From Bacillales bacterium UBA3566 (lineage in GTDB: Bacteria; Bacillota_I; Bacilli_A; Izemoplasmatales; Izemoplasmataceae): a DNA stretch of 64,000 nucleotides. The notes beneath the pieces are model-generated. The model was not told the origin of the DNA, ran no database searches, and saw only the letters and a program-made list of their open reading frames with translations. The position numbers and the translations under genes are program-made. Positions 8,072-20,781 of the stretch are shown here, piece by piece. The stretch spans positions 1,339-65,338 of the forward strand of contig DFNN01000135.1 in NCBI GenBank assembly GCA_002376065.1. The letters are read 5' to 3'. Each line of letters opens with the position of its first letter. Position 1 is the first letter of the stretch.

Positions 8072-9136
8072 ATGGAAATTAAATTAGAAATGCTCACTAA
8101 AGTTTTCGACAATAAGGAAAAAGGGTTGACGACTGCGGTAGATAAGTTGGATATTACAATTCCTAGTGGAAAACTCATTGGGTTACTTGGACCAAGTGGA
8201 TGTGGGAAATCAACAACCTTATATATGATTGCAGGGTTGCTTAAACCAACTGAAGGTAAAATCTATTTTGGAGATGAGAATGTAACTGATATTCCACCAG
8301 AAGATCGTGGAATCGGACTTGTGTTCCAAAATTATGCATTATATCCACACATGACTGTTGCACAAAATATCATGTTCCCATTAGAAAATTTGAAGGTTCC
8401 GAAAGCTGAAGCGATTGAGCGTGCTCAAGAAATGGCTGATTTGGTCGGAATTGGAGAATTAATGGATCGTAAACCAAAACAATTATCAGGTGGTCAACAA
8501 CAACGTGTGGCAATTGCGCGCGCGCTTGTTAAGAAACCACGTGTTTTATTGCTTGATGAGCCACTAAGTAATTTAGATGCTAGATTACGTTTAGCGACTC
8601 GTGAGGAAATAAAAAGGATTCAACGTGAAACAGGGATTACAACTGTATTCGTTACGCATGACCAAGAAGAGGCAATGAGTATTAGTGATGAAATCGTATT
8701 GATGGAGCTTGGAATAAAGCAACAAGTTGGAGAACCACAAGATGTATATGATAAACCTGACAATTTATTTGTTGCGAAATTTTTAGGGACACCACCAATT
8801 AACTTGTTTGATGGACATATTAAAGATGGAAAAATAATGATTGGTGATGCAAATATCGGTCAATTGAAAACTGATGATAAAGAAGTCATTGTTGGAATAA
8901 GACCAGAAGGATTTAGTTTAACAGAACGTTCAAGTTTAAAAGTTGAAGTTGATTTGGTTGAAACGATTGGTCGAGATACCACATTAATTATTGAAAATCC
9001 TACTAGAAAAGGGGAAACATTTAGAGCGATTGTCGATGCTGAAAAACGCATCAAACCAGGAGACAAAATCAAACTGAATGTGAAACCAACGAAACTCTTC
9101 GTCTTTGAAAAAGATACTGGAGAATTAGTGAATTAA
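8072..9136 (+). CDS. ABC transporter ATP-binding protein, MalK/UgpC/MsmX type (CUT1 family)
   Basis: Walker [10 protein letters not shown], signature [15 protein letters not shown], Walker B LLLDEPLSNLD, and a C-terminal regulatory OB-like domain. Confidence 0.92.
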   Translation: MEIKLEMLTKVFDNKEKGLTTAVDKLDITIPSGKLIGLLGPSGCGKSTTLYMIAGLLKPTEGKIYFGDENVTDIPPEDRGIGLVFQNYALYPHMTVAQNIMFPLENLKVPKAEAIERAQEMADLVGIGELMDRKPKQLSGGQQQRVAIARALVKKPRVLLLDEPLSNLDARLRLATREEIKRIQRETGITTVFVTHDQEEAMSISDEIVLMELGIKQQVGEPQDVYDKPDNLFVAKFLGTPPINLFDGHIKDGKIMIGDANIGQLKTDDKEVIVGIRPEGFSLTERSSLKVEVDLVETIGRDTTLIIENPTRKGETFRAIVDAEKRIKPGDKIKLNVKPTKLFVFEKDTGELVN

Positions 9137-10048
9137 ATGTTAGAAGAAAAGCATAATATAAAAGCCTGGTTGTATTTAGCACCAGCTATGATTTTATTGT
9201 TGGTGTTTACATTTTATCCTATATTTAATGCATTTTTCTTAGTATTTTTAAGAGATTTTAACTTTTTAGCAGGATCATTTGATGGATTTACTTTAACCGA
9301 GAACTTTGTATATATACTAAATAAACCGGATTTTAAAAAAGCATTATTAAATACATTAATGATTGTGTTTGTATCGGTTCCTGTTTCTGTTATATTGGCA
9401 TTATTGATATCAGCTTGGTTAAACTCTATTAAGAAATTACAAGGATTTTTCCAAACAATATTCTTTTTACCTTATGTAACCAATGCAATTGCGATTGGTA
9501 TGGCATTTGCATTCTTATTCCATCGAAACTATGGGTTGATTAACACCATATTTAATTGGATAGGACTTCCTAGTATCAACTGGGTTGGGTTAGGTGCTGG
9601 ATACTGGAGCTCTATGTTTGCATTACTTGTATTTATTATTTGGAGTGGGTTGGCATTTAAAATTATGGTCTTCTTAAGTGGGCTTCAAAGTATTGATAAA
9701 CAATATTATGATGCTGCTAAAGTAGATTCGACTCCAAGATCTCGTATTTTCACAAAAATAACTGTACCTTTGCTTTCTCCGATGATTGCTTATATTACAA
9801 TCACTTCAATTATTGGAGCATTTAAAGAGTATACCGCCGTAATTGGTATGTTTGGTGTCCGTTTGGGGCCAGCAGGTAATGACGGTGCACTCGTAACGAT
9901 TGTTGCGCTTGTTTATGAAGCGATTAGTCGTTCGGGATCTGATGGTGCTTATAGTGAGGCTGCTGCGGCATCTATAATTCTTTTTGCAATAACACTCGTT
10001 TTTACGCTAATCAATATGCAAGTTAGCAAAAAACGAGTCCATTTCTAG
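9137..10048 (+). CDS. CUT1-family ABC permease (UgpA/MalF-like)
   Basis: 303 aa, six TM helices. Starts 1 nt after the ATPase stop. Confidence 0.85.
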   Translation: MLEEKHNIKAWLYLAPAMILLLVFTFYPIFNAFFLVFLRDFNFLAGSFDGFTLTENFVYILNKPDFKKALLNTLMIVFVSVPVSVILALLISAWLNSIKKLQGFFQTIFFLPYVTNAIAIGMAFAFLFHRNYGLINTIFNWIGLPSINWVGLGAGYWSSMFALLVFIIWSGLAFKIMVFLSGLQSIDKQYYDAAKVDSTPRSRIFTKITVPLLSPMIAYITITSIIGAFKEYTAVIGMFGVRLGPAGNDGALVTIVALVYEAISRSGSDGAYSEAAAASIILFAITLVFTLINMQVSKKRVHF

Positions 10049-10058
10049 GAGTGATAAT

Positions 10059-10964
10059 ATGAGTGAAAATAGAAAACCTACATTATCGAAAAAAGAACAA
10101 GCAGCCAGAAAACAAAAAATTATTCGATTAGTGATTGTATATACGTTGTTAACATTTGTTGCGCTATTCATAGTTACACCGTTTTATTGGATGATTTTGA
10201 CCAGTTTAAAAACAGCACAGCAAATTGATAGAATACCACCGATTTTATTCTTAAAACCGGGAGATTGGCAATTAAGAAACTTTGCGCTTGCATTGCAGGC
10301 GGCACCTTATGCTAGATTTATGATGAATACAGTGATTGTTGCTGCAATTTCAACGTTTGGAACAATCATTACAACTGTACTTGCAGCGTTTGCGTTTGCT
10401 AGAATCAATTTTAAAGGAAGAGATTTTATCTTTATGATTTTGATTTCTAGTATGATGATACCTGGTGAAATGTTTGTCATTACAAACTTTATGACAGTAA
10501 ACACATTAGGATGGATTCGTGATCAATCATTTATTGATGCTTTAGCTGCAATGTCCTTCCCATTTATGACAAGTATTTTCTACTTGTTCTTCTTGAGACA
10601 AACGTTTAAACAAGTACCTGATGAATTATATTTGGCGGCGAAAGTGGATGGGACCTCAGATTTTAAATACTTGTTAAAAGTCATGATACCGATTGCGAAA
10701 CCGACGATTATAACAATTATCATTTTGAACGCAATGGGAACATGGAATGCATACATTTGGCCAAACTTAGTATCGCCACAGAATGAAAATTATCGTTTGG
10801 TATCAAATGGATTAAGAAATGCTTATCGAGATTTATCAGGGCAAGTGGCTTATAATGAACAAATGTCCGCTGCGTTGATTGTTACAATACCATTATTAAT
10901 TGTGTTCTTATTATTGAAAAAACAAATTATGCGAGGAGTTTCTCGTAGTGGAATTAAAGGATAG
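10059..10964 (+). CDS. CUT1-family ABC permease (UgpE/MalG-like)
   Basis: 301 aa with an EAA-like loop (LYLAAKVDGTSDFKYLLKVMIPIAKP). Confidence 0.85.
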   Translation: MSENRKPTLSKKEQAARKQKIIRLVIVYTLLTFVALFIVTPFYWMILTSLKTAQQIDRIPPILFLKPGDWQLRNFALALQAAPYARFMMNTVIVAAISTFGTIITTVLAAFAFARINFKGRDFIFMILISSMMIPGEMFVITNFMTVNTLGWIRDQSFIDALAAMSFPFMTSIFYLFFLRQTFKQVPDELYLAAKVDGTSDFKYLLKVMIPIAKPTIITIIILNAMGTWNAYIWPNLVSPQNENYRLVSNGLRNAYRDLSGQVAYNEQMSAALIVTIPLLIVFLLLKKQIMRGVSRSGIKG

Positions 10965-11038: not shown

Positions 11039-12397
11039 ATGAAAAGAATTTTTGTTTTATTATTAAGCTTGACATTAGTATTGGCTTTATCGGGTTGTAT
11101 TTTTGGTGGAGGAAGAGAAGAAACCACTGTTACAATTCCAAATGAATTACCGGATGAAGAAATTGAAATTACATTATGGCATGCATTTGGGGATGCCAAC
11201 CAAGAATTGTTACAAGAGATGTTTGACGAGTTTACTGAAATGTATCCAAATGTAACAATTAATCAAGTAACACAAGGTGGATATGATGAGTTACGTAGTG
11301 CAACAATTAATGCGATCACTGCAGGGACTACACCAACACTTGTTATGGGATATCCTGACCACTTTGTTGAATATTTAAATGGTAATGCTTTGGTACCACT
11401 AGATGAGTATATTGAGCATGAAGAATTCGGTGTAGATCTTGATGATTTTGTACCTGGATTCTTAGCTGAAAATCAACAATATTTAGATGGTAAAATGTAT
11501 TCAATGCCATTTGCAAAATCAACTGAAATGGTTGTTTATAACAAAACAGTGTTTGATTATCATGGAATTGACATTCCAAACGATGAAGCATTAACTTGGA
11601 CAGATTTAGAAGGATTTGCTGATACAATTATTGGTGATGGAGAATATCAATGTGAATTCTTATTCAATGCTGACTCTGCAGCAAACTTCTTCATCAACTC
11701 ATCACGTCAATGGGACGCAGGGTATACTACTACTGAAGGTGATGTATTGATTGATAACCAATCAACTAGAGATATGCTAAATTATTATAAAGATTTAATG
11801 GATCAAGATATCTTAGCATTCCCAATCGAGTGGGATCAAGATTATGGTTCAACAAACTTCTTGCAAGGTGATGTATGTATGACTCAAGGGTCTACTGCAG
11901 GAACTAGATATAATATTCCAGTTGAAGGTCAAGAAGGTAAATTTGGACAGTTTGAAGTTGGAATTACTCCAATTATCCAATTAGAAGATGGAACAGCTTC
12001 AGCAATTCAACAAGGACCAAACATTGCAATGGTTTCTGATGCAACAGAGGCAGAAAGATTAGCAGCTTGGTTACTAATTAAACATATGACAAATACAGAA
12101 AATACAGCATTCTTTGCAATGAACACTGGGTATGTACCTGTTCGTTTATCAGCGTTCAATGATCCAGATTATCAAGCATTCTTAAACACAGATGATCCAG
12201 ATCGTTTGCCATTCTCAATGGCAGCAAATGTTGCTTATGCTCAAGTAGATTATTACCAATATGATCCAGCGTTTGTTGGTAGAATTACTTCTTCTACAGT
12301 TCGACAAGAAGCAGGGTTCATGTTTGAAAGAATTTATTCTGAGACACAAACTGTTGAAGAATCATTAGAACAAATGTTGGAACAATTAGGACAATAA
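11039..12397 (+). CDS. ABC transporter substrate-binding lipoprotein (family-1 SBP)
   Basis: Lipobox LALSGC. EIEITLWHAFGD... and MGYPDH motifs typical of CUT1 solute-binding proteins. Strong AAGGAGGAG RBS. Confidence 0.85.
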   Translation: MKRIFVLLLSLTLVLALSGCIFGGGREETTVTIPNELPDEEIEITLWHAFGDANQELLQEMFDEFTEMYPNVTINQVTQGGYDELRSATINAITAGTTPTLVMGYPDHFVEYLNGNALVPLDEYIEHEEFGVDLDDFVPGFLAENQQYLDGKMYSMPFAKSTEMVVYNKTVFDYHGIDIPNDEALTWTDLEGFADTIIGDGEYQCEFLFNADSAANFFINSSRQWDAGYTTTEGDVLIDNQSTRDMLNYYKDLMDQDILAFPIEWDQDYGSTNFLQGDVCMTQGSTAGTRYNIPVEGQEGKFGQFEVGITPIIQLEDGTASAIQQGPNIAMVSDATEAERLAAWLLIKHMTNTENTAFFAMNTGYVPVRLSAFNDPDYQAFLNTDDPDRLPFSMAANVAYAQVDYYQYDPAFVGRITSSTVRQEAGFMFERIYSETQTVEESLEQMLEQLGQ

Positions 12398-12400
12398 GTT

Positions 12401-13576
12401 TTGAATAAAGTTTTACTAATATCTTTAGGAATTATTTTGAGTTTCACCCTCGTTGCTTGCGGGGGTGAAGACTCAACAAATGAGTATGAGTTAAACACAG
12501 AGTTAACAGATGAGTTAACTTTGGATCGTTCTTATGATGGTACAACATTAGAACAAGATGGTATTGAAGAAGTATCTTTGGTTAGTTGTGAGGATGGAGA
12601 TACTGCTGTTTTTGATACTGTAGATGGAGAAGTAAGAGTGAGGTTTTTAGGGATTGATACCCCGGAAGCCAGTTATAAATATGATCCTTGGGGTCTTGCT
12701 GCAACGCAGTTTACATGTGAAAAACTATATGGAGCCGAAACCTTAGTAGTTGAACAAGATGAAGAGGCCGGGCCGGTTGACAATTATGGACGTCATTTAG
12801 GATATGTATGGTATGATGGTCGTTTGTTAAATCTTGAAGTGATTGAACAAGCATATTCTTTGGCTGTTGGTGTTGAAAAACTGAAATATGGTGAGGAAAT
12901 GCTGGCTGCACAAAATCATGCAAGTTTGACTGAAAAAAGACTTCATGGTGAAGATGATCCTGCATATGATTATAGTACGTCTGGAACAGATATGACAATT
13001 GAAGAAATTGTCAAGAATTACGAAGATAATATATTGAAAAGTGTCAACGTTGAAGGTGTTATTACACGAAAATTAGGGACACATGTATATATCGAACAAG
13101 ATGGCTATGGGATTTACGTATATACAGGTTATGAGACAAGCGCCAAGTTGGTTATTGGTCACGAGGTACGATTTGAAAAAATGCAAGTTATTTATGACTT
13201 AAGAAGACGTGGTGGCCTTCACTTAGCGAGATTCAATGTAAGAACAGTTTCTGTATTAAGTGAAGATAATCCTGTTAATCCTAAAACATTGAGTATTGAT
13301 GAAATAACACCGTTAGATTATGGAGTCTTCAGTAGGTTTGAGGATTTAGAGATTGTTGAAATTGACATGACTAATCAAATTTGGACGATGACTTTAAAGC
13401 AAAACGGTGAAACAATGAAAGTGATTCAGCCATATGGTATTTTAGAAGAAAATATTGTAGATGTAGAACAGTTTATGATTGGACAGGTCATCAATGTTCA
13501 AGGAGTTTTACAGGAAACGATCGATGGTTATCAATTGTTGATATTAAATAGTGATGATGTAACGACGGATGAATAA
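12401..13576 (+). CDS. surface lipoprotein: SNase (thermonuclease) domain plus C-terminal OB-like barrel
   Basis: TTG start 3 nt after the SBP stop. Lipobox TLVACGG. SNase signatures DGDTAVF, RVRFLGIDTPE, NYGRHLGYVWYDGRLLNLEVIEQAYS. C-terminal VNVEGVITRKLGTHVYIEQDGYGIYVY. Confidence 0.85.
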   Translation: MNKVLLISLGIILSFTLVACGGEDSTNEYELNTELTDELTLDRSYDGTTLEQDGIEEVSLVSCEDGDTAVFDTVDGEVRVRFLGIDTPEASYKYDPWGLAATQFTCEKLYGAETLVVEQDEEAGPVDNYGRHLGYVWYDGRLLNLEVIEQAYSLAVGVEKLKYGEEMLAAQNHASLTEKRLHGEDDPAYDYSTSGTDMTIEEIVKNYEDNILKSVNVEGVITRKLGTHVYIEQDGYGIYVYTGYETSAKLVIGHEVRFEKMQVIYDLRRRGGLHLARFNVRTVSVLSEDNPVNPKTLSIDEITPLDYGVFSRFEDLEIVEIDMTNQIWTMTLKQNGETMKVIQPYGILEENIVDVEQFMIGQVINVQGVLQETIDGYQLLILNSDDVTTDE

Positions 13577-13610: not shown

Positions 13611-14798
13611 ATGAAGAAATTGTTCACTTTAGGACTGGTAGCAATTAGTATAATCGTTCTTGCTGCTTGTACTGAAAAAGCGCCAGAAGATGAAGAAATA
13701 GATCGCACGTTAACGACTACACTGACTGATAGTCTTGAGTTAGAAACTGATTATGCAGGAATGTCATTTATCCAAGATGGTATTGGAGAAGTTGAGTTGG
13801 TTAGATGTGTCGATGGAGATACTGCTATATTTGCTGAAGGTTCTCAAGAATTTAGTGTACGTTATTTGGGAATTGATACTCCTGAATCTACTTATCGATT
13901 TGATCCTTGGGGAAAAGCGGCAAGTGATCACATGTGTGAGGCGTTAGAAAGTGCATCAACCATCGTACTTGAAGCTGATGAGTATACAGAAAGAAAAGAT
14001 GGCAATGATCGATATTTGGCTTATGTTTGGTTAGATGGTCGAAACATTAATTTAGAAATGATTGAACTTGCGTATACACCAGCTACAGGTGCGACAGATT
14101 TAGAATATGGTGCTTTATTTTCACAAGCATGGTTTAAAGCACAGGCAACGGAACGTCGTATTTGGGGTGAAGATGACCCTAATTTTGATTATTCAAAAGA
14201 AGGAGTCCAAATTACGATTGAAGAACTAGTAACAAATCAAAGTGAATATATCGGGAGAAAAGTGACGATAACTGGAGTGATTTCTAGTAAAGTAGGACGA
14301 CATGGGTATATTCAACAAGGGGATTATGGAGTATATGTATATACTGGGTTTGAATATACGACAAAATTCCAAATAGGAAATGAAGTAACGCTTGATAATG
14401 TAGTGCCAACATATCATCCAGATGAAGAAACTGGTGCATTACAATTAAGTGGATTTAGAGCAAGAAATTTAGAAATATTATCAGAAGGAAATATTGTTGA
14501 ACCAAATCTTGTTACGGTGAGTGAGTTGACAAATGAAATGATTGGGTCTTTGGTAGAGATTCATCAGTTAACAATTGTTGATGTATATGCTGGACAAGAT
14601 GGCGCATTTACTGTTTATACAGAAGATGAGTTTGGGAATTCTTTGGTATTAAGAAAAGATTCTTCGAGCTCAAGTGATATCGAAATCACAGATTATTCTG
14701 TTGGAAAAATTCTCAATATCGTTGGTCCTGTACATGTATATAATAGCGAGATGCAAATTATGATTACGAGTACACAAGACGTAACGTTCATTGAATAA
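13611..14798 (+). CDS. surface lipoprotein: SNase domain plus C-terminal OB-like barrel (paralogue of the previous gene)
   Basis: Lipobox VLAACTE. DGDTAIF, SVRYLGIDTPE, DRYLAYVWLDGRNINLEMIELAYT. C-terminal KVTITGVISSKVGRHGYIQQGDYGVYVY. Start could also be the TTG at 13602. Confidence 0.85.
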   Translation: MKKLFTLGLVAISIIVLAACTEKAPEDEEIDRTLTTTLTDSLELETDYAGMSFIQDGIGEVELVRCVDGDTAIFAEGSQEFSVRYLGIDTPESTYRFDPWGKAASDHMCEALESASTIVLEADEYTERKDGNDRYLAYVWLDGRNINLEMIELAYTPATGATDLEYGALFSQAWFKAQATERRIWGEDDPNFDYSKEGVQITIEELVTNQSEYIGRKVTITGVISSKVGRHGYIQQGDYGVYVYTGFEYTTKFQIGNEVTLDNVVPTYHPDEETGALQLSGFRARNLEILSEGNIVEPNLVTVSELTNEMIGSLVEIHQLTIVDVYAGQDGAFTVYTEDEFGNSLVLRKDSSSSSDIEITDYSVGKILNIVGPVHVYNSEMQIMITSTQDVTFIE

Positions 14799-14824: not shown

Positions 14825-17764
14825 ATGAAGAAAATATTAACATTGGCTTTAATATTAATTGCTTCAATTACACTTGTTGCTTGTGGTGGAACCACCGATG
14901 ATGGTGAATTATCAGATGCAGACAAAGTAGAAGAAGCAAGAGCAGCTTTATTGCTTGGTGGATTAGATCAAGTAAAAGCAAATATGAATTTACCTACTGC
15001 TGGTAGAAATGGGACAACAATTACTTGGGAATCAAGTGATCCTAGTGTTATTTCTAATACTGGTGAAGTTACTCGTCCAGAAGAGGGAGAAGGTAATGTA
15101 GAAGTTACATTAACTGCGACCATTACATTGAATGACGAAAGTGCGACTAGAGAATTTATTGCGGTGGTTATTCAAGAAGAACCTTCTAGTACGTTTGATA
15201 CTATTGCGGAGTTACATACAGCATCAGCTAAAAATGATGTAGTTGAATTCCAAGGGATTGTATCATCTGTATTTAATGGAGGATATTTCTTAACGGATGG
15301 AACTGATGTCATTGGTGTATATGGACAATTGGCTGAAGAAGTAAATGTTGGCGATGAAATCTTTGTCAAAGGATCATATGCTTCTTATTACACATTGTTC
15401 CAAATCTCTGATGTGACAGTTGAAGATATCGTTAGTACTGGAAATCCAGTGAATTTGCCTGTAACTAATACAACGATTGCGGGAATATTAAACGAAGATT
15501 CTTCAGATAAATTAATTCACGGGAAACATTATAGTATAATTGGTACTGTAGAATTGCGTGGAGAATTCAATAATGTTTGGTTATTTACTGGTGATCAAGA
15601 TGTTGTAATTTATTATCAATCTCCTGCTGATTCAATTGCGGCTTTAGAAGCTGTTGTTGGTGAAACAATTGCGATTGATGTTGTATATTATACTGATCAT
15701 CCTGTTGATGGTTTACGTGTTGTATTCCAAGGGGACGCTAGTGATATTACATTAGAAGATGATTTTAGTGATGAGCAAACTACTCGTTTAGCTGCTAGTT
15801 TCTTAAGTTTTGGTGAATTAGAAACAACGACTGATTTTGAACTACCATCTGAAATTGCTGATTATGGTGCAAGTGTTACTTGGGCTACAAGTGATGCAAG
15901 TGTTGTTACTGCTGATGGATTAGTTACAAGAGATGAAGATACTGATTTAGAAGCTACTTTAACAGCGACAGTTACAGTAGGAAGTGAATCATTTGATATT
16001 GATTTCCCTGTTGTAGTCATTAGTTATGCGACTGAATCTGCGACACCTGTGGCAGTTGCTGATGTTCTTGCTGGTACTGTTGGAGATGAATTCTTAGTTG
16101 AAGGTGTTGTATCTGCAATCAACTCTACTTACGGATTCTTTATCCAAGATGCTGATGGAACTGCGATTTATGTTGCTAGTATTTTCGAAGGTGTAGAAGT
16201 TGGAGATCACGTTGTATTACGTGGAGACTTAGGTTTATGGGATAGTTATGGTAACTATCAATTAAAACTAGTTGATTCTTCATTGGTTGAAGATAATGAT
16301 GGTGATCACGATGTGCATATCATTACAGATCAAACTGGTACACAAATTGTTGATACTTTCTTAGAAGATTATAGTAATTCAAGTAAAATTTATACAACTG
16401 ATTTAACATTTAGTCATGTAGATACTTATGGGTATGCATTCTTTGATGCCGGTACTGCTGGTGAGATGAGAATCACATTCAAATATACTGATTACGCTCC
16501 ATTCTTAGAAACTGCTGAAGAAGGATATGTTCTAGAAGATGTTACATTCGTTGTTTATGATGTGAACTATGACAACTTACGTGTTGTTTCAGTTGAAATT
16601 TTAGAAGAAGCAGTTGCGGTTGCTGATGTACTTGCTGGTACTGTTGGTGAAAACTATTATGTTACTGGTGTTGTTTCAGCTGTCAATATGCATTATGGAT
16701 TCTTTATCCAAGATGCTGATGGAACTGCAATTTATGTTAAAGGTTCATTTGCTGGAGTTGAAGAAGGGGACTTAGTTGAAGTCGTTGGAGATTTGGCAAT
16801 TTGGGATCAATATGGAAATAGTCAATTGAGTTTGGAAAATGTTGTATTAAAAGACAATTTCAAAGGAAATGAAAGTATTCATATTATTACCGATCAAACA
16901 GCTGTACAAATCGTTGATACTTTCCAAGCAGATTATAGTAATTCAGGAAAAATATTCACTGCAGACTTAACATTTAGTCATGTAGATACATATGGATATG
17001 CATTCTTCGATATGGGAACTGCGGGAGATATGCAAATTACATTCAAATATACTGATTATGCTCCATTCTTAGAAGACGCTACTGAAGGTGACATTTTAGA
17101 AAACGTAACATTCGTTGTTTATGATGTTAACTATGATAACTTACGCGTTGTTTCAGTAATCTTAGATGAAACTGCACATTATGCTCATTTGGTTGATAAT
17201 GATACTGTAGTTACAGTAACTGGTGTTGTAACATTTGTACAAAACTATGATGGTTCATTCTTCGTAGAAGACGCTGATGGAACAACAATTTATGTAGATG
17301 ATTTTAGCAATTCATTAGAAGCTTGGCCAACAGTAGCTGTTGGTGATGAAGTAACTGTTGTTGGAGACAAAGGGTTCTATCGAGTACCACTTGTTGATAC
17401 AGTAAGTGCTATAACAATTAATTCAAGCGCAAATGCTTTAACAGATACAGTTCACGCTGTTGCTGATGTTGCTACATTCCGTGATGCGCCTAACAGTATG
17501 GACTTCGGACAAAGATTTACATTTACTGATGTTACTGTTGTAGAAGTTGCTGATGGTGAAATTGTATTCTATCAAAACGGTGAAAACCATACAATGTTAA
17601 TTGATTTAGATGAATCTGTTGACTTGAGTTCACTAGCTATCGAAGCTGGAGATGTGATTACATTTACTGCAACATTATATCGTTCATATGATAAGTATGA
17701 TGATATTGATGCAACTTATTACTTTGGTGTAACTGATGCTGCTGATGTAACAGTAGCTGAATAA
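14825..17764 (+). CDS. 979-aa lipoprotein built from Ig-like and OB-fold-like modules, with no recognisable catalytic domain
   Basis: Lipobox TLVACGG. Two TW(E/A)SSDPSV...TLTATI Ig-like modules. At least five G(I/V)V(S/T)...(Y/F)F(L/I/V)(T/Q/E)D(G/A)(T/D)...IYV...VGDE OB-like modules. Contains an internal tandem duplication. Confidence 0.8.
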   Translation: MKKILTLALILIASITLVACGGTTDDGELSDADKVEEARAALLLGGLDQVKANMNLPTAGRNGTTITWESSDPSVISNTGEVTRPEEGEGNVEVTLTATITLNDESATREFIAVVIQEEPSSTFDTIAELHTASAKNDVVEFQGIVSSVFNGGYFLTDGTDVIGVYGQLAEEVNVGDEIFVKGSYASYYTLFQISDVTVEDIVSTGNPVNLPVTNTTIAGILNEDSSDKLIHGKHYSIIGTVELRGEFNNVWLFTGDQDVVIYYQSPADSIAALEAVVGETIAIDVVYYTDHPVDGLRVVFQGDASDITLEDDFSDEQTTRLAASFLSFGELETTTDFELPSEIADYGASVTWATSDASVVTADGLVTRDEDTDLEATLTATVTVGSESFDIDFPVVVISYATESATPVAVADVLAGTVGDEFLVEGVVSAINSTYGFFIQDADGTAIYVASIFEGVEVGDHVVLRGDLGLWDSYGNYQLKLVDSSLVEDNDGDHDVHIITDQTGTQIVDTFLEDYSNSSKIYTTDLTFSHVDTYGYAFFDAGTAGEMRITFKYTDYAPFLETAEEGYVLEDVTFVVYDVNYDNLRVVSVEILEEAVAVADVLAGTVGENYYVTGVVSAVNMHYGFFIQDADGTAIYVKGSFAGVEEGDLVEVVGDLAIWDQYGNSQLSLENVVLKDNFKGNESIHIITDQTAVQIVDTFQADYSNSGKIFTADLTFSHVDTYGYAFFDMGTAGDMQITFKYTDYAPFLEDATEGDILENVTFVVYDVNYDNLRVVSVILDETAHYAHLVDNDTVVTVTGVVTFVQNYDGSFFVEDADGTTIYVDDFSNSLEAWPTVAVGDEVTVVGDKGFYRVPLVDTVSAITINSSANALTDTVHAVADVATFRDAPNSMDFGQRFTFTDVTVVEVADGEIVFYQNGENHTMLIDLDESVDLSSLAIEAGDVITFTATLYRSYDKYDDIDATYYFGVTDAADVTVAE
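16049..17176 (+). repeat. in-frame tandem duplication, 2 x 564 nt (188 aa), inside the 979-aa lipoprotein gene
   Basis: Unit 1 is 16049-16612 and unit 2 is 16613-17176. Identical runs include GGATTCTTTATCCAAGATGCTGATGGAACTGC at 16133 and 16697. Protein units VAVADVLAGTVG...NYDNLRVVSV are clearly alignable. Confidence 0.9.
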
Positions 17765-17786
17765 TAAAACTCTATTTTTCAAGTTA

Positions 17787-17818
17787 AAACACCACTGCTT
17801 TAGTGGTGTTTTTCTTTT
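17787..17818 (+). terminator. rho-independent terminator
   Basis: AAACACCACT / AGTGGTGTTT 10-bp stem followed by a T-run. Confidence 0.85.
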
Positions 17819-17863: not shown

Positions 17864-18769
17864 ATGAAAAAGATGGTGTTTTTCGTATTTATGATGATTG
17901 TATTTGTTTTAGCTGGGTGTGAAAATACAAACCCAGATGAAGTAATATTACCTGACTTGGAAGGTTATCATAAAGATGAAATAGAAGAAGTATTTGAAGA
18001 TCTAGGAGTGGAAATCTATTTTGTATATAATAAGGCAACCGTTATAGAAGAATCAGAAATGTTTATTGGATATGGACAATTTTATTTGGCGGGAGATCAA
18101 TTTAATGTGACTCAAGAACTGCCCATTATTATTTATGATGAATATATTGATTTAAGTGCGTATTTTTTCTATGATGAGATAGACTATGATGGACCTTATT
18201 TGGATATAGAATTATATAATGGGATAGATCCAATTGATCCTAGAGGAGGATACTTTTCTGTGGAAAATCCTATATGCACAGACGGTGATACTGCGGTGTT
18301 CGATTATCCGAATGACATTTACCAGTTGATTACTAGTGGCGCGAAAAGTACAAGATTTTTAAATATGGATACCCCTGAGACTTATCCTGATGGTGAGGAA
18401 GAATGGGGAAAACCAGCGAGTTTGTACACTTGTCTATTGCTAAATGATGCAGAAGATATTATCCTCCAAACAGATCCAGGAGATAATCTAACTGGAAACT
18501 ATGGTCGATTACTTGCTTGGGTATGGGTGAAACTCGATGGAGAAGATCAGTATTTCTTACTCAATTATATGGTTGTCAGACAGGGATTAGGAGAAGTGGC
18601 ATATGAATACGGTGCTGGTGAAACAATATCTTATGGGGCTTATACATATAATGAATGGATGCATTTAGCAGAAGATCGAGCTAGGGCAGACGAGTATGGA
18701 CAATGGGGAAATTTGTTAGATTATTATTGGGATTATGAAGATGATTCCCCGAATGAAAATTGGAATTAA
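17864..18769 (+). CDS. surface lipoprotein: PASTA-like N-terminal module plus SNase domain
   Basis: ATG at 17864 (AGGTGA RBS). Lipobox VLAGCEN. ILPDLEGYHKDEIEEVFEDLGVEIYFVY resembles a PASTA repeat. SNase signatures DGDTAVF, TRFLNMDTPE, NYGRLLAWVWV, LNYMVVRQGLG. Confidence 0.8.
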   Translation: MKKMVFFVFMMIVFVLAGCENTNPDEVILPDLEGYHKDEIEEVFEDLGVEIYFVYNKATVIEESEMFIGYGQFYLAGDQFNVTQELPIIIYDEYIDLSAYFFYDEIDYDGPYLDIELYNGIDPIDPRGGYFSVENPICTDGDTAVFDYPNDIYQLITSGAKSTRFLNMDTPETYPDGEEEWGKPASLYTCLLLNDAEDIILQTDPGDNLTGNYGRLLAWVWVKLDGEDQYFLLNYMVVRQGLGEVAYEYGAGETISYGAYTYNEWMHLAEDRARADEYGQWGNLLDYYWDYEDDSPNENWN

Positions 18770-18773
18770 ATTG

Positions 18774-18810
18774 ACACACAAAAAATAATTTATTTTTTGT
18801 GTGTTTTCTT
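18774..18810 (+). terminator. rho-independent terminator
   Basis: ACACACAAAAAATAA / TTATTTTTTGTGTGT long A/T-rich stem followed by T-rich sequence. Confidence 0.7.
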
Positions 18811-18878
18811 TCTATTTTCAATAGTTTTTTAAGTTGTTGTATGATATAATGTAATGTTATTTTTAAGAGGTGAAATAG

Positions 18879-19823
18879 ATGTTTAAACAAATAAAAACGT
18901 TGATAGAAGAGTATAATCATATTGTGATTCATCGCCATAAAAATCCAGATGGGGATGCATATGGAAGTCAAATGGGATTAAAGCGATTGATTGAGTTGAA
19001 TTATCCAAACAAAAAAGTCGTTGCGGTCGGAGACACCAATGTATTCTCATATATTGGTGAGGTTGATCACGTGGATGATGTGTTTTATGAAAATGCACTT
19101 GCGATTATTTTGGATGTTGCTGTGACACAGCTTGTGAGTGATGATCGTTATCATTTAGCAAAACAAAGATTGGTGATTGATCACCATTTGAATGATTCAA
19201 ATATTGATGGGATGATCATGATTGATTCTAACTATATTTCTTGTGCTGAGTTGATTGCGGATATGGCTTTAACAATGAATTGGAAAATTGATGAGCTGGC
19301 TGCGACTAATTTGATGTTTGGGATTATCACAGATAGTGGAAGGTTTTTATATCCTAATACAAAAGCGAATACCTTTAACATTGCGGCTGCTTTGATGAAT
19401 AAAGGTGCAAAATTACAATACATATATAATCAGTTGTATACAGAATCATTAAATTTTAAAAAGTTAAAAGGGTATTTTATTAATAATTTTAAGACGACAG
19501 ACTATAATGTCGCATATATGAAAAATGATGTTAGTATTAAAGAACAATTTGGAGTATCTACCTTTACAGTTTCACGTGCAATGGTGAATCAAATGAGTGG
19601 AATAGAGAATGTTTCTATATGGGCGAATTTCACCGAAGATGTTGATGGACTTATACAGTGTGAACTTAGAAGTAAAGAAATTCCAATTGTTGATGTGGCC
19701 AAAAAATATGGTGGTGGAGGACATGCACTTGCTTGTGGATGTACTGTTAAATCGTTTGATATGGCCGATGAGATACTTGCAGATTTAGATGCAATCATAG
19801 AAAAGAGTGGAAAACATGGATAA
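18879..19823 (+). CDS. DHH/DHHA1 phosphoesterase (NrnA-like oligoribonuclease / pAp phosphatase)
   Basis: Motifs HRHKNPDGDAYGS, LDVA, IDHH, ITDSGRF, and DHHA1 GGGHALACG. Confidence 0.85.
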   Translation: MFKQIKTLIEEYNHIVIHRHKNPDGDAYGSQMGLKRLIELNYPNKKVVAVGDTNVFSYIGEVDHVDDVFYENALAIILDVAVTQLVSDDRYHLAKQRLVIDHHLNDSNIDGMIMIDSNYISCAELIADMALTMNWKIDELAATNLMFGIITDSGRFLYPNTKANTFNIAAALMNKGAKLQYIYNQLYTESLNFKKLKGYFINNFKTTDYNVAYMKNDVSIKEQFGVSTFTVSRAMVNQMSGIENVSIWANFTEDVDGLIQCELRSKEIPIVDVAKKYGGGGHALACGCTVKSFDMADEILADLDAIIEKSGKHG

Positions 19824-20781
19824 AAAAGCTTTAAGAAGTATTTACAAGAAAATTAAAAGTTATGAGAAAATTGTGATTTTACCACATCAAAGACCTGATG
19901 GGGATTGTATTGGAACAGCGTTTGGATTAAAAGATATGATTGTCGCATCTTTTCCAAATAAAAAAGTGTTTGTCGTTGGTGAAACAAGTGACTTTACAAG
20001 TTTTATCGGTGTTCCTGATGAAGTAGAAGATGAAGTCTTTAAAGATGCACTTGCTATCAGTGTTGACACTGCGGCACGTGATCGCATAGGAGATGACCGA
20101 TATAAAGATGCTGATTTCTTAATTAAGATAGATCATCATATACCTGTCGATGATTTTGGTGATATTAATTATGTGGATATATCTAGACCAGCTGCTGCAC
20201 TGATTATTTTGGATTTATACAAGTTATTCGAGGGTGACTTGAAGATTACACCTGTTGGTGCAAAAGCGTTGTTTATGGGCATTTTGACGGATACTGGTAG
20301 GTTTAAATATTCGGGCGTGAATGCAGATACATTTAGAAATGTAGCAGACTTGTTTGATATCGGGTTTGATGCGAGAAGTGTTTACAATTACTTGGATACA
20401 AGAACAGAGGAATTGACTAGGTTTAGAGGGTTTTTCTTGCAAAATTACCAAAAGACAGAACACGGAGTAGCGTATTTTAAGATTCTTCCTGAACATTTAG
20501 AACAATTCCATGTTACCTTAGAAGAAGCTTCTAGTTTGGTGAATGAACTTGGTGTTTTTGCTGATTGTCCAATTTGGATATTGTTCGCAGAATACGAAGA
20601 ACAAATCGTACGTGCTAGAGTTCGTAGTAAAGGACCTGCTATAAATGAACTTGCGGGAAGATTTGATGGTGGTGGTCACGCAATGGCTAGTGGTGCAAAC
20701 TTGGGTACTTGGGAACGTACAGAGGAATTATTAAAAGAAGCTGATCAATTAGCGAAGGAATACAAAGAGAGTTTATTATAA
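19816..20781 (+). CDS. DHH/DHHA1 phosphoesterase, second tandem paralogue
   Basis: Motifs PHQRPDGDCIGTA, VDTA, IDHH, LTDTGRF, GGGHAMASG. ATG at 19816 overlaps the previous gene by 8 nt (the track start is GTG at 19807). Confidence 0.85.
   Translation: MDKKALRSIYKKIKSYEKIVILPHQRPDGDCIGTAFGLKDMIVASFPNKKVFVVGETSDFTSFIGVPDEVEDEVFKDALAISVDTAARDRIGDDRYKDADFLIKIDHHIPVDDFGDINYVDISRPAAALIILDLYKLFEGDLKITPVGAKALFMGILTDTGRFKYSGVNADTFRNVADLFDIGFDARSVYNYLDTRTEELTRFRGFFLQNYQKTEHGVAYFKILPEHLEQFHVTLEEASSLVNELGVFADCPIWILFAEYEEQIVRARVRSKGPAINELAGRFDGGGHAMASGANLGTWERTEELLKEADQLAKEYKESLL

What the first reader, a model, noticed from the sequence alone, without database searches (positions are those of the whole stretch)
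8072..20781. ABC importer, three surface SNase nucleases, an OB-fold array and two NrnA-like DHH enzymes: a candidate extracellular nucleic-acid harvesting system
Seen in sequence: one same-strand block with minimal gaps.
- A MalK/UgpC-type ATPase (8072), two CUT1 permeases and a lipoprotein SBP (11039).
- After a 3-nt gap, two SNase lipoproteins, each with a C-terminal OB-like barrel (12401, 13611).
- A 979-aa lipoprotein made of Ig-like and OB-like modules with no catalytic motif I can recognise (14825), then a terminator.
- A third SNase lipoprotein (17864), then a terminator.
- Two overlapping DHH/DHHA1 phosphoesterases (18879, 19816).
All five exported proteins carry lipoboxes (LSGC, LVAC, LAAC, LVAC, LAGC). 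The SNase Ca/catalytic signatures (DGDT ... R-[FY]-L-x-[IM]-DTPE ... R-x-L-[AG]-[YW]-VW) are intact in all three.
Established knowledge (from memory, to be verified): in Mycoplasma, SNase-type surface lipoprotein nucleases (M. hyopneumoniae Mhp379, M. pneumoniae MPN133, M. genitalium MG_186) sit beside a Ugp-like ABC transporter whose substrate has never been shown. A DHH nanoRNase homologue (mgpA / MPN140) lies a few genes downstream.
Inference: this locus is a greatly expanded version of that minimal module. It suggests a pipeline of capture (OB array), cleavage (three SNases), import (CUT1 ABC) and intracellular trimming to mononucleotides (two NrnA-like enzymes). A sugar-family (CUT1) transporter dedicated to nucleic-acid breakdown products would be a new substrate class for that family.
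Basis: partly seen in the sequence, partly recalled or inferred. Interest (0 to 1): 0.85.

Follow-up and report, generated by a model that had tools for sequence, protein, structure and literature searches.

The report
Izemoplasma extracellular DNA-foraging gene cluster
This is a real, intact gene cluster that lets a wall-less marine bacterium (Candidatus Izemoplasmataceae) cut up and import extracellular DNA/RNA, but the same cluster has already been published for this group, so this is a well-read rediscovery and not a new system.

Summary
These are a MalK/UgpC-type ABC importer, three lipoprotein SNases with intact catalytic residues, a 979-aa lipoprotein built from Ig-like and OB modules, and two NrnA-like DHH enzymes.

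The window comes from a Candidatus Izemoplasmataceae MAG. The block is syntenic, gene for gene, with the published "DNA-degradation locus" of Izemoplasmatales (Wasmund 2021; Zheng 2021, 2023). In cultured relatives that locus is induced by added DNA or RNA. The nuclease-feeds-ABC-importer model was already proposed for Mycoplasma in 2013.

In 63 of 64 species-level relatives the binding-protein gene is followed by the SNase and/or OB-array genes.

New details found here:
- The binding protein sits in the UgpB clade. Its closest solved relative binds the dinucleotide UpG. The phosphate-contacting Tyr/Ser/Tyr are kept and the glycerol Trp clamp is lost.
- The SNase C-terminal domains and the OB-array modules are the DUF5689 / HIN-like dsDNA-binding fold, also used in Bacteroides DNA-utilisation loci.
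- Pho-box-like repeats lie upstream of the ABC operon, the Na/Pi transporter and pstS.
- The functional neighbourhood extends to about 29.3 kb (pstSCAB-phoU plus a PhoPR-like pair).

The transported substrate is still unproven. Verdict: new member of a known kind, modest interest.

The parts
7957..7985 (+). Pho-box-like direct repeats (TTTAGA-N5-TTAACA-N5-TTAACA) upstream of the ABC operon promoter
   Evidence: The exact pattern TTAASA-N5-TTAASA occurs 5 times in 64 kb against 0.23 expected. All hits fall in three promoter regions of this locus. This box is degenerate in the closest relatives and absent upstream of the ABC genes in 65 other species.
8009..8057 (+). Promoter-like site (extended -10 TTGTATAAT at 8029-8037) followed by the palindrome GTTAATcaaATTAAC (8043-8057)
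   Evidence: Found in the consensus scan. The core AAACGNTT..TTGTATAATGTAGTGTTA is conserved upstream of the ATPase gene in many relatives.
8072..9136 (+). ABC ATPase, MalK/UgpC type, with a C-terminal TOBE/OB regulatory domain
   Evidence: Pfam ABC_tran, TOBE_2 and OB_MalK. NCBIfam UgpC scores 369 bits, below the 432 cutoff.
9137..10048 (+). ABC permease 1 (UgpA/MalF-like)
   Evidence: BPD_transp_1; best NCBIfam hit is UgpA.
10059..10964 (+). ABC permease 2 (UgpE/MalG-like)
   Evidence: BPD_transp_1; best NCBIfam hit is UgpE.
11039..12397 (+). Lipoprotein substrate-binding protein of the UgpB / GPC / UpG-binding clade of CUT1
   Evidence: SBP_bac_8/1. The closest solved structure is 7C0F at E 4e-22, then M. 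tuberculosis UgpB at 3e-19. Y82, S161 and Y365 are invariant with UgpB and 7C0F, and the Trp clamp is absent.
12401..13576 (+). SNase lipoprotein 1 with a C-terminal tandem beta-barrel (DUF5689-like) domain
   Evidence: Pfam SNase. It is 38% identical to SN2 over its full length. Catalytic residues are intact.
13611..14798 (+). SNase lipoprotein 2 with a C-terminal DUF5689 tandem beta-barrel domain
   Evidence: Pfam SNase + DUF5689. The AF2 model has pLDDT 87.9, with the SNase fold plus two barrels at 218-291 and 314-394. Foldseek matches SNase.
14825..17764 (+). 979-aa lipoprotein: aBig_2, tandem-OB module A, aBig_2, OB modules B1 and B2 (72% identical duplicates), module C. No catalytic domain detected.
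   Evidence: Pfam. Internal repeats. AF2 model and Foldseek matches to HIN-dsDNA, CST, S1 and YgiW OB folds. hhalign to the SNase C-terminal domain family gives prob 98.3. It is the ortholog of the X. coldseepsis 1146-aa protein and of Wasmund's 1049-aa protein, but lacks the lamin-tail domain.
17786..17812 (+). Terminator-like hairpin ending the ABC-SNase-OB operon
17864..18769 (+). SNase lipoprotein 3: conserved N-terminal domain of unknown function plus a C-terminal SNase
   Evidence: Pfam SNase at residues 164-281. Catalytic residues are intact. The N-terminal domain is conserved in relatives; a PASTA hit is not significant.
18773..18805 (+). Terminator-like hairpin after SNase 3
18879..19823 (+). 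NrnA-like DHH/DHHA1 phosphoesterase 1 (cytoplasmic)
   Evidence: Pfam DHH + DHHA1. NCBIfam NrnA scores 260 bits, below the 350 cutoff. The DHH and GGGH motifs can be read in the translation.
19807..20781 (+). NrnA-like DHH/DHHA1 phosphoesterase 2; it overlaps the previous gene (alternative ATG at 19816)
   Evidence: Pfam DHH + DHHA1. NCBIfam NrnA scores 233 bits. It is 35% identical to paralog 1.
20764..20790 (+). Terminator-like hairpin after the DHH pair
20795..20822 (+). Pho-box-like repeats (three TTAAGA hexamers with 11-bp phasing) upstream of the Na/Pi transporter
   Evidence: The strict pattern is also present upstream of the Na/Pi gene in 8 of 15 relatives.
20894..22570 (+). Na/Pi cotransporter fused to PhoU domains
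   Evidence: Pfam Na_Pi_cotrans + PhoU; NCBIfam Na/Pi symporter.
22648..23322 (+). OmpR/PhoB-family response regulator
   Evidence: Pfam Response_reg + Trans_reg_C. PhoB is among the best NCBIfam hits but below its cutoff.
23362..23388 (+). Pho-box-like repeats upstream of pstS
23461..28029 (+). pstS (lipoprotein), pstC, pstA, pstB and phoU
   Evidence: NCBIfam PstC, PstA, PstB and PhoU all score above their cutoffs; the PstS-family hit is below its cutoff.
28072..29295 (+). PhoR/PnpS-like sensor histidine kinase
   Evidence: Pfam HisKA + HATPase_c. NCBIfam PnpS scores 334 bits, below its cutoff, and PhoR 243 bits.

Best explanation
This is the Izemoplasmatales extracellular nucleic-acid foraging locus.

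Shown here:
- The genes, their domains, the intact catalytic residues and the lipoprotein signals.
- Conserved synteny with the published loci, which are induced by DNA/RNA in cultured relatives.

Inferred mechanism:
1. Three membrane-anchored Ca-dependent SNase nucleases cut extracellular DNA/RNA into 3'-phosphorylated mono-, di- and oligonucleotides. Two of them carry a DUF5689/HIN-like tandem-OB module.
2. A nuclease-less lipoprotein built from the same OB modules holds the polymer at the cell surface.
3. A UgpB-clade CUT1 ABC importer, co-transcribed with two of the nucleases and the OB array, takes up small phosphodiester- or phosphate-bearing products. Di- or oligonucleotides or nucleotides are most likely. 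My estimate for this step is about 0.45.
4. Two cytoplasmic NrnA-like DHH enzymes trim the products to mononucleotides and remove 3'-phosphates.
5. Phosphate uptake genes (Na/Pi, pstSCAB) and a PhoPR-like two-component system lie next door. In this genome they share Pho-box-like repeats with the ABC operon. This suggests phosphate limitation is one of the inducing signals.
For: Identity of the locus:
- The genes sit in the same order as in X. coldseepsis zrk13 (dnaX-ybaB-recR-small ORF-ATPase-permease-permease-SBP-SNase-big lipoprotein-SNase-DHH-DHH-Na/Pi-RR). They also match Ca. I. acidinucleici MAG-BB-5, including its 1049-aa protein.
- These are the loci described in PMC8289736 and PMC8397711. 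They are up-regulated by DNA or DNA+RNA in culture.

Linkage:
- 63 of 64 species-level loci with at least 1.5 kb downstream of the binding-protein gene carry SNase and/or the OB-array gene.
- 27 of 33 loci with at least 9 kb downstream carry two NrnA-like genes.
- In 10 Acholeplasmataceae-like loci the cluster has moved away from recR, yet all 10 keep the big-lipoprotein gene after the ABC genes. The 7 with about 10 kb downstream also keep an SNase, and 4 of them show both DHH genes within the flank.

Nucleases: catalytic and Ca-binding residues are intact and the SNase fold is predicted.

DNA-binding modules:
- DUF5689 is detected.
- hhalign links the SNase C-terminal domain to module A of the OB array.
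- Foldseek matches HIN-dsDNA complexes and other OB-fold nucleic-acid binders.
- DUF5689 is the proposed DNA-binding subunit DdbD in Bacteroides DNA-utilisation loci, and a DUF5689 protein is essential for Riemerella transformation.

Transporter ligand:
- The closest solved binding protein is the UpG-binding 7C0F.
- Phosphate-contacting Y82, S161 and Y365 are conserved, and the G3P Trp clamp is absent.
- No UgpQ-type glycerophosphodiesterase is present in the window or in any flank.

Regulation: the Pho-box pattern is found only at three promoters of this locus.
Against: - No ligand has been shown for this binding protein or for any ortholog.
- Sequence distance to the UpG binder (E 4e-22) is barely smaller than to the glycerophosphocholine-binding M. 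tuberculosis UgpB (E 3e-19).
- Wasmund et al. read the transporter as a nucleoside or nucleobase importer.
- The DHH pair is a separate transcription unit behind two terminators.
- A tandem DHH pair in M. bovis has a housekeeping role in c-di-AMP and nanoRNA turnover.
- Most of the relatives compared belong to one clade in which dnaX-recR is also syntenic, so part of the gene-order conservation is inheritance and not selection.
- The Pho box upstream of the ABC operon is degenerate in 94%-identical relatives and absent in 65 other species.
- No DNA-binding assay exists for DUF5689 or for the OB array.
Confidence: 0.7

Rival explanations
1. The locus forages DNA, but the ABC importer carries dephosphorylated products (nucleosides, nucleobases or deoxyribose), as Wasmund et al. 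proposed. The phosphate released outside the cell enters through the neighbouring Pst and Na/Pi systems.
For: This is the published interpretation. CUT1 is mainly a sugar family. Phosphate transporters lie directly downstream.
Against: - No extracellular nucleotidase or phosphatase is encoded in the locus.
- Two oligonucleotide- and pAp-processing DHH enzymes stay linked to the cluster.
Confidence: 0.2
2. The ABC system is a conventional Ugp-type importer of glycerophosphodiesters or glycerol phosphate within a phosphate-starvation supercluster. The nucleases are only co-regulated phosphate scavengers and do not supply the transporter.
For: The best NCBIfam hits are UgpC/A/E/B. M. tuberculosis UgpB (GPC-binding) is nearly as close as 7C0F. 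Pho-box-like repeats and pst/phoU/PhoR-like genes are adjacent. In E. coli, ugp is a Pho-regulon operon (established knowledge; locus seen).
Against: - All Ugp equivalog cutoffs are missed by a wide margin (SBP 78 vs 411 bits).
- The Trp clamp that holds glycerol is missing.
- No UgpQ/GlpQ homolog is found in the window or in about 80 related loci.
- The binding-protein gene is separated from the first SNase gene by 3 nt, and it is followed by nuclease or OB-array genes in 63 of 64 species.
Confidence: 0.12
3. The two NrnA-like genes are housekeeping enzymes for nanoRNA, pAp and c-di-AMP turnover. They sit next to the foraging genes only by inherited gene order and are not a dedicated last step of the pipeline.
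For: They form their own transcription unit behind two terminators. The M. bovis tandem DHH pair Mbov_0328/0327 has these general roles. dnaX-ybaB-recR is equally syntenic in 48 of 58 loci, and nobody would call that part of DNA foraging.
Against: Where the cluster has left the dnaX-recR neighbourhood, the DHH pair has travelled with it in the loci whose flank reaches far enough. NrnA is listed in the induced locus of H. nucleasis. In M. bovis the pair is needed for nucleotide supply in cell culture, which is itself a salvage role.
Confidence: 0.3
4. The surface nucleases serve mainly for protection or remodelling (clearing DNA matrices, competence, defence) and not for nutrition.
For: Mycoplasma SNase homologs degrade neutrophil extracellular traps. 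A DUF5689 protein is needed for natural transformation in Riemerella.
Against: Free-living sediment Izemoplasmatales incorporated 13C from DNA. X. coldseepsis grows better with DNA, and the locus is induced. The nuclease genes are fused into an importer operon.
Confidence: 0.05

Closest known systems
Putative 'DNA-degradation locus' of Ca. Izemoplasmatales (Wasmund et al. 2021, Nat Microbiol, Fig. 6; Zheng et al. 2021, ISME J, Fig. 4A for X. coldseepsis zrk13; Zheng et al. 2023, mBio for Hujiaoplasma nucleasis)
   Same: Same clade, same gene order and same components: ABC importer with an orthologous binding protein (47-52% identity), SNase lipoproteins, a large aBig_2/OB lipoprotein, two DHH phosphohydrolases, Na/Pi and Pst phosphate transporters, and a location downstream of dnaX-ybaB-recR.
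   Different: The SNase-DUF5689 gene is duplicated in tandem; this is also seen in Liberiplasma polymorphum and three MAGs. The large lipoprotein is 979 aa, lacks the lamin-tail domain and carries a recent 72%-identical module duplication. Exact Pho-box repeats lie upstream of the ABC operon.
Mycoplasma SNase lipoprotein + P80 binding protein + sugar-type ABC operon (M. agalactiae MAG_5030-5070; mhp379, MPN133 and MHO_0730 contexts)
   Same: A surface SNase lipoprotein is co-transcribed with a binding-protein-dependent sugar-family ABC importer. The model of a nuclease feeding the importer is the same, and the substrate is likewise unproven.
   Different: Gene order differs (SBP-SNase-ATPase-permeases there). 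There is only one nuclease, no OB-array protein, and the genetic code differs. Orthology of the transporters was not established here; the only signal is a weak P68-lipoprotein family hit on the binding protein.
Thermus thermophilus dinucleotide (UpG)-binding CUT1 substrate-binding protein, PDB 7C0F (Chandravanshi et al. 2021, FEBS J), within the UgpB / GPC-binding clade
   Same: It is the closest solved relative by sequence (E 4e-22, about 29% identity). It shares the phosphate-contacting Tyr, Ser and Tyr and lacks the UgpB glycerol Trp clamp (PMC12718374).
   Different: The relationship is distant, and one mutated binding-site Asn in 7C0F is Asp here. Whether the Thermus protein has any link to nucleases was not examined here. 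No ligand data exist for the Izemoplasma protein.
Bacteroides thetaiotaomicron ddbABCDEF DNA-utilisation locus and the Riemerella transformation genes (DUF5689 protein DdbD / RA0C_RS04920)
   Same: Secreted or surface nucleases are combined with a DUF5689 module whose predicted fold resembles HIN dsDNA-binding domains and with a dedicated importer. The logic matches a polymer-utilisation locus.
   Different: [quoted passage not shown] Here there is no outer membrane, the module is fused to SNase or arrayed in a lipoprotein, and uptake is by an ABC importer.
E. coli ugpBAECQ (Pho-regulon glycerol-3-phosphate / glycerophosphodiester importer)
   Same: Same ABC subfamily architecture, and the best-scoring NCBIfam models for all four components are the Ugp ones. 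It is also associated with phosphate-starvation genes.
   Different: All equivalog cutoffs are missed, the Trp clamp is absent, there is no UgpQ, and the operon is fused to nuclease genes.

Membership tests
Staphylococcal nuclease (SNase / thermonuclease) family | SNase OB-like fold | tested here: met
   Pfam SNase scores above the cutoff in all three proteins. The SN2 AF2 model superposes on S. aureus nuclease with TMt 0.81-0.88.
Staphylococcal nuclease (SNase / thermonuclease) family | Ca-binding D21, D40 and T41, and catalytic R35, E43 and R87 | tested here: met
   All are invariant in SN1, SN2, SN3 and the X. coldseepsis ortholog.
Staphylococcal nuclease (SNase / thermonuclease) family | Ca-dependent hydrolysis of DNA and RNA giving 3'-phosphate products | not testable with these tools
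   This needs an enzyme assay.
CUT1 (TC 3.A.1.1) binding-protein-dependent ABC importer | MalK-type ATPase with a C-terminal regulatory TOBE/OB domain, two BPD_transp_1 permeases and an SBP_bac_1/8 binding protein | tested here: met
UgpBAEC glycerol-3-phosphate importer (equivalog) | Scores above the NCBIfam equivalog cutoffs | tested here: not met
   UgpC 369 vs 432, UgpA 75 vs 335, UgpE 105 vs 297 and UgpB 78 vs 411 bits.
UgpBAEC glycerol-3-phosphate importer (equivalog) | Trp-Trp clamp holding the glycerol moiety (E. coli GWQGW) | tested here: not met
   The aligned positions are Cys and Leu in QCEFLF.
UgpB / GPC / UpG phosphodiester-binding clade of CUT1 binding proteins | Conserved Tyr, Ser, Ser and Tyr that orient the phosphate oxygens (PMC12718374) | tested here: met
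   Y82, S161 and Y365 are invariant with E. coli UgpB and 7C0F. The second Ser position lies in GSTAG (S321/T322), so its exact register is less certain.
UgpB / GPC / UpG phosphodiester-binding clade of CUT1 binding proteins | Binding of a phosphate-containing ligand | not testable with these tools
   This needs ITC or DSF, or a structure.
NrnA (bifunctional oligoribonuclease / pAp phosphatase) | DHH and DHHA1 domains with the DGD, DHH and GGGH motifs | tested here: met
   Pfam DHH + DHHA1 in both proteins. The motifs can be read in the translations.
NrnA (bifunctional oligoribonuclease / pAp phosphatase) | Score above the NCBIfam NrnA equivalog cutoff | tested here: not met
   260 and 233 bits against a cutoff of 350. 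They are therefore called 'NrnA-like'.
Izemoplasmatales DNA-degradation locus (Wasmund 2021; Zheng 2021) | Several predicted extracellular nucleases co-localised with an ABC importer, DHH phosphohydrolases and phosphate transporters | tested here: met
.
Izemoplasmatales DNA-degradation locus (Wasmund 2021; Zheng 2021) | Orthology and synteny with the published loci (X. coldseepsis zrk13; Ca. I. acidinucleici MAG-BB-5) | tested here: met
   Gene-for-gene order matches in L001 and L044. The binding proteins are 52% and 47% identical.
Izemoplasmatales DNA-degradation locus (Wasmund 2021; Zheng 2021) | [quoted passage not shown] | tested here: inconclusive
   An ortholog is present (33-35% identity) but lacks the lamin-tail domain. 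No nuclease domain is detectable by Pfam in this protein or in the published 1049-aa and 1146-aa proteins.
Izemoplasmatales DNA-degradation locus (Wasmund 2021; Zheng 2021) | Induction by nucleic acid and growth benefit from DNA | not testable with these tools
   This is shown only for cultured relatives.
Mycoplasma SNase-ABC operon (MAG_5030-5070 type) | SNase lipoprotein gene in one operon with a sugar-type ABC importer | tested here: met
   The gaps are 3 to 34 nt with no terminator before 17786.
Mycoplasma SNase-ABC operon (MAG_5030-5070 type) | Orthology of the binding protein and permeases with P80 / MAG_5050-5070 or MPN134-136 | tested here: inconclusive
   There is only a partial hit to the P68 lipoprotein family (E 1e-9, residues 71-174). 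No Mycoplasma sequences were retrieved by the one genome scan available.
Bacteroidota Ddb DNA-utilisation / transformation loci | [quoted passage not shown] | tested here: not met
   DUF5689 is present, but no TonB-dependent transporter is. Only the DNA-binding module is shared.
Pho regulon (PhoPR-type control) | Phased TT(A/T/C)ACA-like direct repeats in promoters, plus a PhoPR-like two-component system | tested here: inconclusive
   Exact repeats occur at three promoters against 0.23 expected, and a PhoB/PnpS-like pair is present but below cutoffs. The repeats are conserved upstream of Na/Pi in 8 of 15 relatives but not upstream of the ABC operon. Binding was not tested.

The most novel reading that the evidence does not exclude
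The UgpB-clade binding protein and its ABC importer take up the direct products of the surface SNases, namely 3'-phosphorylated di- or oligonucleotides. The two NrnA-like enzymes then finish the digestion inside the cell. If so, this would be the first physiologically assigned bacterial importer of oligonucleotides as food. It would also suggest what the long-unassigned 'Ugp-like' transporter next to Mycoplasma surface nucleases carries. In the same reading, the DUF5689/HIN-like tandem-OB unit would be a general extracellular dsDNA receptor module shared by Bacteroidota and Mycoplasmatota DNA-uptake systems.
Probability: 0.35. Interest if true: 0.65.

Novelty: new member of a known kind. Interest (0 to 1): 0.3.

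Why it matters
Extracellular DNA is a major pool of phosphorus, nitrogen and carbon in sediments, and Izemoplasmatales are among its specialised consumers. The locus itself is already in the literature, so this window adds another well-preserved instance with small variations.

Two points remain unresolved: what the importer actually carries, and whether the DUF5689/OB modules bind DNA. The sequence evidence gathered here narrows the ligand question. The binding protein keeps a phosphate-binding site, has no glycerol clamp, and its nearest solved relative binds a dinucleotide. This gives a concrete ligand panel to test in a cultivable relative. The result would also bear on the unassigned nuclease-linked ABC transporter of pathogenic mycoplasmas.

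Tried and rejected
- Riboswitch or other RNA element upstream of the operon: Rfam found only an SRP RNA elsewhere in the window.
- tRNA genes: none.
- Pho box as a conserved regulator of the ABC operon: rejected as a general feature. The strict pattern occurs 0 of 65 times and a relaxed one 3 of 65 times upstream of the ATPase gene in relatives, against 1 of 48 in a control region. It is degenerate even in the closest relatives sampled (SBP 94% identical). It stands only for this genome and, across relatives, for the Na/Pi promoter.
- UgpQ-type glycerophosphodiesterase in the window or flanks: none, using a single-sequence phmmer search of limited sensitivity.
- PASTA domain at the N-terminus of SNase 3: E 0.037, not significant.
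- Foldseek of the SN2 model to identify the C-terminal domain: the output was swamped by hundreds of SNase variants. The question was answered instead by hhalign against the OB-array family and by Foldseek of the 979-aa model.
- A hidden catalytic domain in the 979-aa protein: none by Pfam, NCBIfam, PDB sequence search or Foldseek. Two stretches (489-593 and 784-874) are modelled with low confidence, so a small unrecognised domain cannot be excluded.
- Reading the FEBS J paper on 7C0F: it is not held. The identity of 7C0F as the UpG binder was confirmed from the supplement of PMC12718374.
- Retrieving Mycoplasma loci: the single genome-collection scan used Izemoplasma-specific peptide patterns and did not reach them.

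Full report
**1. Observation**

Profile searches confirm each assignment:
- a MalK/UgpC-type ATPase with a TOBE/OB tail (8072-9136);
- two BPD_transp_1 permeases (9137-10048 and 10059-10964);
- an SBP_bac_1/8 lipoprotein (11039-12397);
- SNase domains in 12401-13576, 13611-14798 and 17864-18769;
- two aBig_2 domains and a marginal tRNA_anti_2 OB hit in the 979-aa protein (14825-17764);
- DHH + DHHA1 in the two overlapping genes 18879-19823 and 19807-20781.

The five lipoboxes are readable in the translations.

When aligned with S. aureus nuclease, D19, G20, D21, T22, R35, D40, T41, P42, E43 and R87 are invariant in all three SNases. An AlphaFold model of SN2 (pLDDT 87.9) superposes on SNase with TM about 0.88.

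Terminator-like hairpins lie at 7913-7939, 17786-17812, 18773-18805 and 20764-20790. The units are therefore ABC + SN1 + SN2 + 979-aa protein, then SN3, then the DHH pair.

No riboswitch or tRNA is present.

**2. Where the window comes from, and what was already known**

The binding protein's homologs are almost all from Candidatus Izemoplasmataceae/Izimaplasma MAGs and from Xianfuyuplasma coldseepsis. Exact-sequence look-up places the window's proteins in an NCBI Ca. Izemoplasmataceae MAG.

Three papers describe this very locus.
- Wasmund et al. 2021 (PMC8289736) report "conspicuous genomic loci" in Izemoplasmatales. [quoted passage not shown] The authors note that homologs of the binding protein also have nuclease neighbours.
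- Zheng et al. 2021 (PMC8397711) find the locus in the first cultured member. They show DNA degradation, growth stimulation by DNA and induction of the locus genes.
- Zheng et al. 2023 (PMC10470597) report the same for Hujiaoplasma nucleasis. The locus there includes NrnA, ABC transporters, RecR and a nucleoid-associated protein, with up to 27-fold induction by DNA+RNA.

For Mycoplasma, Cacciotto et al. 2013 (PMC3585158) showed co-transcription of the SNase MAG_5040 with the P80 binding protein and a sugar-type ABC transporter. They proposed that the nuclease supplies nucleotide precursors to the transporter. A 2022 review repeats this for mhp379, MPN133 and MHO_0730.

**3. Direct test of identity**

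The X. coldseepsis chromosome carries this order: dnaX, ybaB, recR, a small ORF, ATPase, two permeases, binding protein, SNase+DUF5689, a 1146-aa aBig_2/LTD protein, SNase, DHH, DHH, Na/Pi-PhoU, response regulator. This is the window's order.

A scan of one genome per species with a binding-protein alignment returned 79 distinct loci. They come from Izemoplasmatales, family UBA5603, Acholeplasmataceae/Mariniplasma, Liberiplasma polymorphum and others. Wasmund's Ca. I. acidinucleici MAG-BB-5 is among them.

I searched their six-frame ORFs with the window's proteins.
- 63 of 64 loci with at least 1.5 kb downstream of the binding-protein gene carry an SNase and/or the big OB protein on the same strand (58 SNase, 63 big protein).
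- 27 of 33 loci with at least 9 kb downstream carry two NrnA-like genes.
- The only exception is a second, isolated binding-protein copy in MAG-BB-5.

Most of these loci also keep dnaX-recR upstream, so gene order alone could be inheritance. In 10 Acholeplasmataceae-like loci, however, the cluster is no longer next to recR. All 10 still keep the big-lipoprotein gene after the ABC genes. The 7 with about 10 kb downstream also keep an SNase, and 4 of them show both DHH genes within the flank. This argues for selection on the cluster itself.

Wasmund's 1,049-aa protein is the ortholog of the window's 979-aa protein. Pfam finds no nuclease domain in the 979-aa, 1,049-aa or 1,146-aa versions.

**4. 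How this instance differs**

- The SNase+DUF5689 gene is duplicated in tandem (SN1 and SN2 are 38% identical). The same duplication occurs in L. polymorphum and three MAGs.
- The big lipoprotein lacks the lamin-tail domain.
- It also contains a 72%-identical tandem duplication of a roughly 190-aa module.
- Relatives whose binding protein is 94% identical have the same 979-aa architecture.

**5. The non-catalytic modules**

The SN2 model shows two consecutive five- to six-stranded barrels after the SNase domain. Pfam calls this region DUF5689.

A profile-profile comparison aligns it with module A (residues about 124-300) of the 979-aa protein, with probability 98.3 and E 1e-14. The big protein is therefore an array of the same module without the nuclease.

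The AlphaFold model of the big protein has pLDDT 73.7, with two low-confidence stretches. Its Foldseek matches include the p204 HINab-dsDNA complex, the AIM2/IFI16/p202 HIN domains, CST, S1 domains, Dis3L2 and YgiW. All of these are OB-fold proteins, most of them nucleic-acid binders.

DUF5689 is also the domain of DdbD. That protein is the proposed DNA-binding partner of the TonB-dependent transporter in the Bacteroides thetaiotaomicron ddbABCDEF DNA-utilisation locus, and its model was likewise compared to p202. A Riemerella DUF5689 protein is essential for natural transformation.

No binding assay exists.

**6. What the importer carries**

By sequence, the closest solved structures are the T. 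thermophilus 7C0F series (E 4e-22), then M. tuberculosis UgpB (3e-19), then E. coli UgpB (1e-14).

7C0F is the uridylyl-3'-5'-phosphoguanosine (UpG) binding protein (PMC12718374 text and Table S5). That paper states that two Tyr and two Ser orient the phosphate in the UgpB, GPC- and UpG-binding proteins. A Trp pair, which that paper says emerged on the way to UgpB, clamps glycerol.

In my alignment Y82, S161 and Y365 are invariant across the Izemoplasma family, E. coli UgpB and 7C0F. The second Ser falls in GSTAG. The Trp pair is replaced by Cys and Leu. Two of the 7C0F point mutants deposited in the PDB (Tyr to Phe, Ser to Ala) hit exactly the conserved Tyr and Ser.

No UgpQ-type diesterase occurs in the window or the flanks.

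This favours a ligand that carries a phosphate or phosphodiester and is larger than G3P. That fits SNase products and the downstream NrnA-like enzymes. Glycerophosphodiesters are not excluded, and Wasmund's nucleoside reading is not formally refuted.

A CUT1 protein that binds a dinucleotide already exists, so "a new substrate class" is too strong.

**7. Regulation and extent**

Downstream of 20781 lie a Na/Pi-PhoU transporter, an OmpR/PhoB-family regulator, pstS, pstC, pstA, pstB, phoU and a PnpS/PhoR-like kinase.

The pattern TTAASA-N5-TTAASA occurs five times in the 64-kb window against 0.23 expected. None of 100 shuffles reached five matches. All hits lie in three promoter regions: upstream of the ABC operon (7968), of the Na/Pi gene (20795 and 20806) and of pstS (23372).

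Across relatives the box is found upstream of Na/Pi in 8 of 15 loci. It is not found upstream of the ABC operon, and it is degenerate there even in the closest relatives. Phosphate control of the nuclease-importer operon is therefore a reasonable hypothesis for this genome only.

A different promoter core (AAACGNTT..TTGTATAATGTAGTGTTA) is conserved upstream of the ATPase gene in many species. It is unexplained.

**8. The DHH pair**

Both proteins have the DGD, DHH and GGGH motifs and score best against NrnA, though below the equivalog cutoff.

In M. bovis a tandem DHH pair provides c-di-NMP phosphodiesterase and nanoRNase/pAp-phosphatase activities and is needed for nucleotide supply in cell culture. 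This fits a salvage end-step. It equally fits a general housekeeping role, and the pair has its own terminator-bounded unit.

**9. Verdict**

The "new substrate class" claim is overstated, and homology to the Mycoplasma module is untested.

Three things are added here:
- a sharper, testable ligand hypothesis;
- the DUF5689/HIN-like identity of the binding modules, which links this locus to Bacteroidota DNA-uptake systems;
- a genome-specific Pho-box signature.

Novelty is rated as a new member of a known kind, with interest 0.3.

Noticed in passing
window 7957-7985, 20795-20822, 23362-23388: Phased TTAACA/TTAAGA direct repeats (Pho-box-like) occur only in three promoter regions of this locus: 5 exact matches against 0.23 expected. 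They are conserved upstream of the Na/Pi gene in 8 of 15 relatives but not upstream of the ABC operon.
   Followed up: partly
window 8012-8057 and the equivalent upstream regions of L001, L005, L010, L013, L014, L022, L027, L028, L037: A promoter core (AAACGNTTTTATT..TTGTATAAT GTAGTGTTA) is conserved upstream of the ABC ATPase gene across species. In the window it is followed by the perfect palindrome GTTAATcaaATTAAC (8043-8057). This could be an operator or a 5'-UTR element for an unknown regulator.
   Followed up: partly
window 16022-16609 vs 16592-17179: There is a 72%-identical tandem duplication of a roughly 190-aa OB-containing module inside the 979-aa lipoprotein. AlphaFold models the second copy confidently, but the back half of the first copy (residues 489-593) has pLDDT below 50.
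   Followed up: partly
window 17924-18268 (SNase 3, residues about 21-135): The N-terminal domain of the third SNase is conserved in many relatives but has no significant family match. The only hint is a PASTA-like hit at E 0.037.
   Followed up: partly
window 7644-7910: An 88-aa predicted membrane protein lies between recR and the ABC operon. It is conserved at this position in most Izemoplasmatales loci, has no family match, and is followed by a terminator.
   Followed up: no
L062-L077, L082 (Acholeplasmataceae / Mariniplasma / MO-XQ loci): In these relatives the open reading frames (stop to stop) of the orthologous binding proteins are much longer (about 625-850 codons against 452 aa here) and the second permease is about 470 codons. 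This is reminiscent of the large Mycoplasma P68/P80 lipoproteins and could bridge the two systems.
   Followed up: no
L024, L026, L029-L031, L034-L036, L044, L045 and others: In many Izemoplasma genomes the first SNase carries an extra N-terminal aBig_2 domain (about 485 aa). Some have an additional small aBig_2-only gene before the big lipoprotein, so the modules are shuffled freely within the locus.
   Followed up: no
L048 (Ca. Izemoplasma acidinucleici MAG-BB-5, scaffold_71): This is a second, isolated copy of the binding-protein gene with no nuclease, OB-array or ABC genes nearby. It is the only exception to the linkage among 64 loci.
   Followed up: no
P0156 (Haloplasma contractile, 978 aa): This is a homolog of the 979-aa OB-array lipoprotein (33% identity, 77% coverage) outside Izemoplasmatales. 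UniRef names it 'Extracellular nuclease protein' although only aBig_2 is recorded by Pfam.
   Followed up: no
window 37189-38481; 52927-56486; 61130-61222: Other features in the window are a GGDEF + HD-GYP protein, an [FeFe]-hydrogenase large subunit with a NuoF-like partner (a bifurcating-type hydrogenase, consistent with a fermentative lifestyle), and the small SRP RNA.
   Followed up: no
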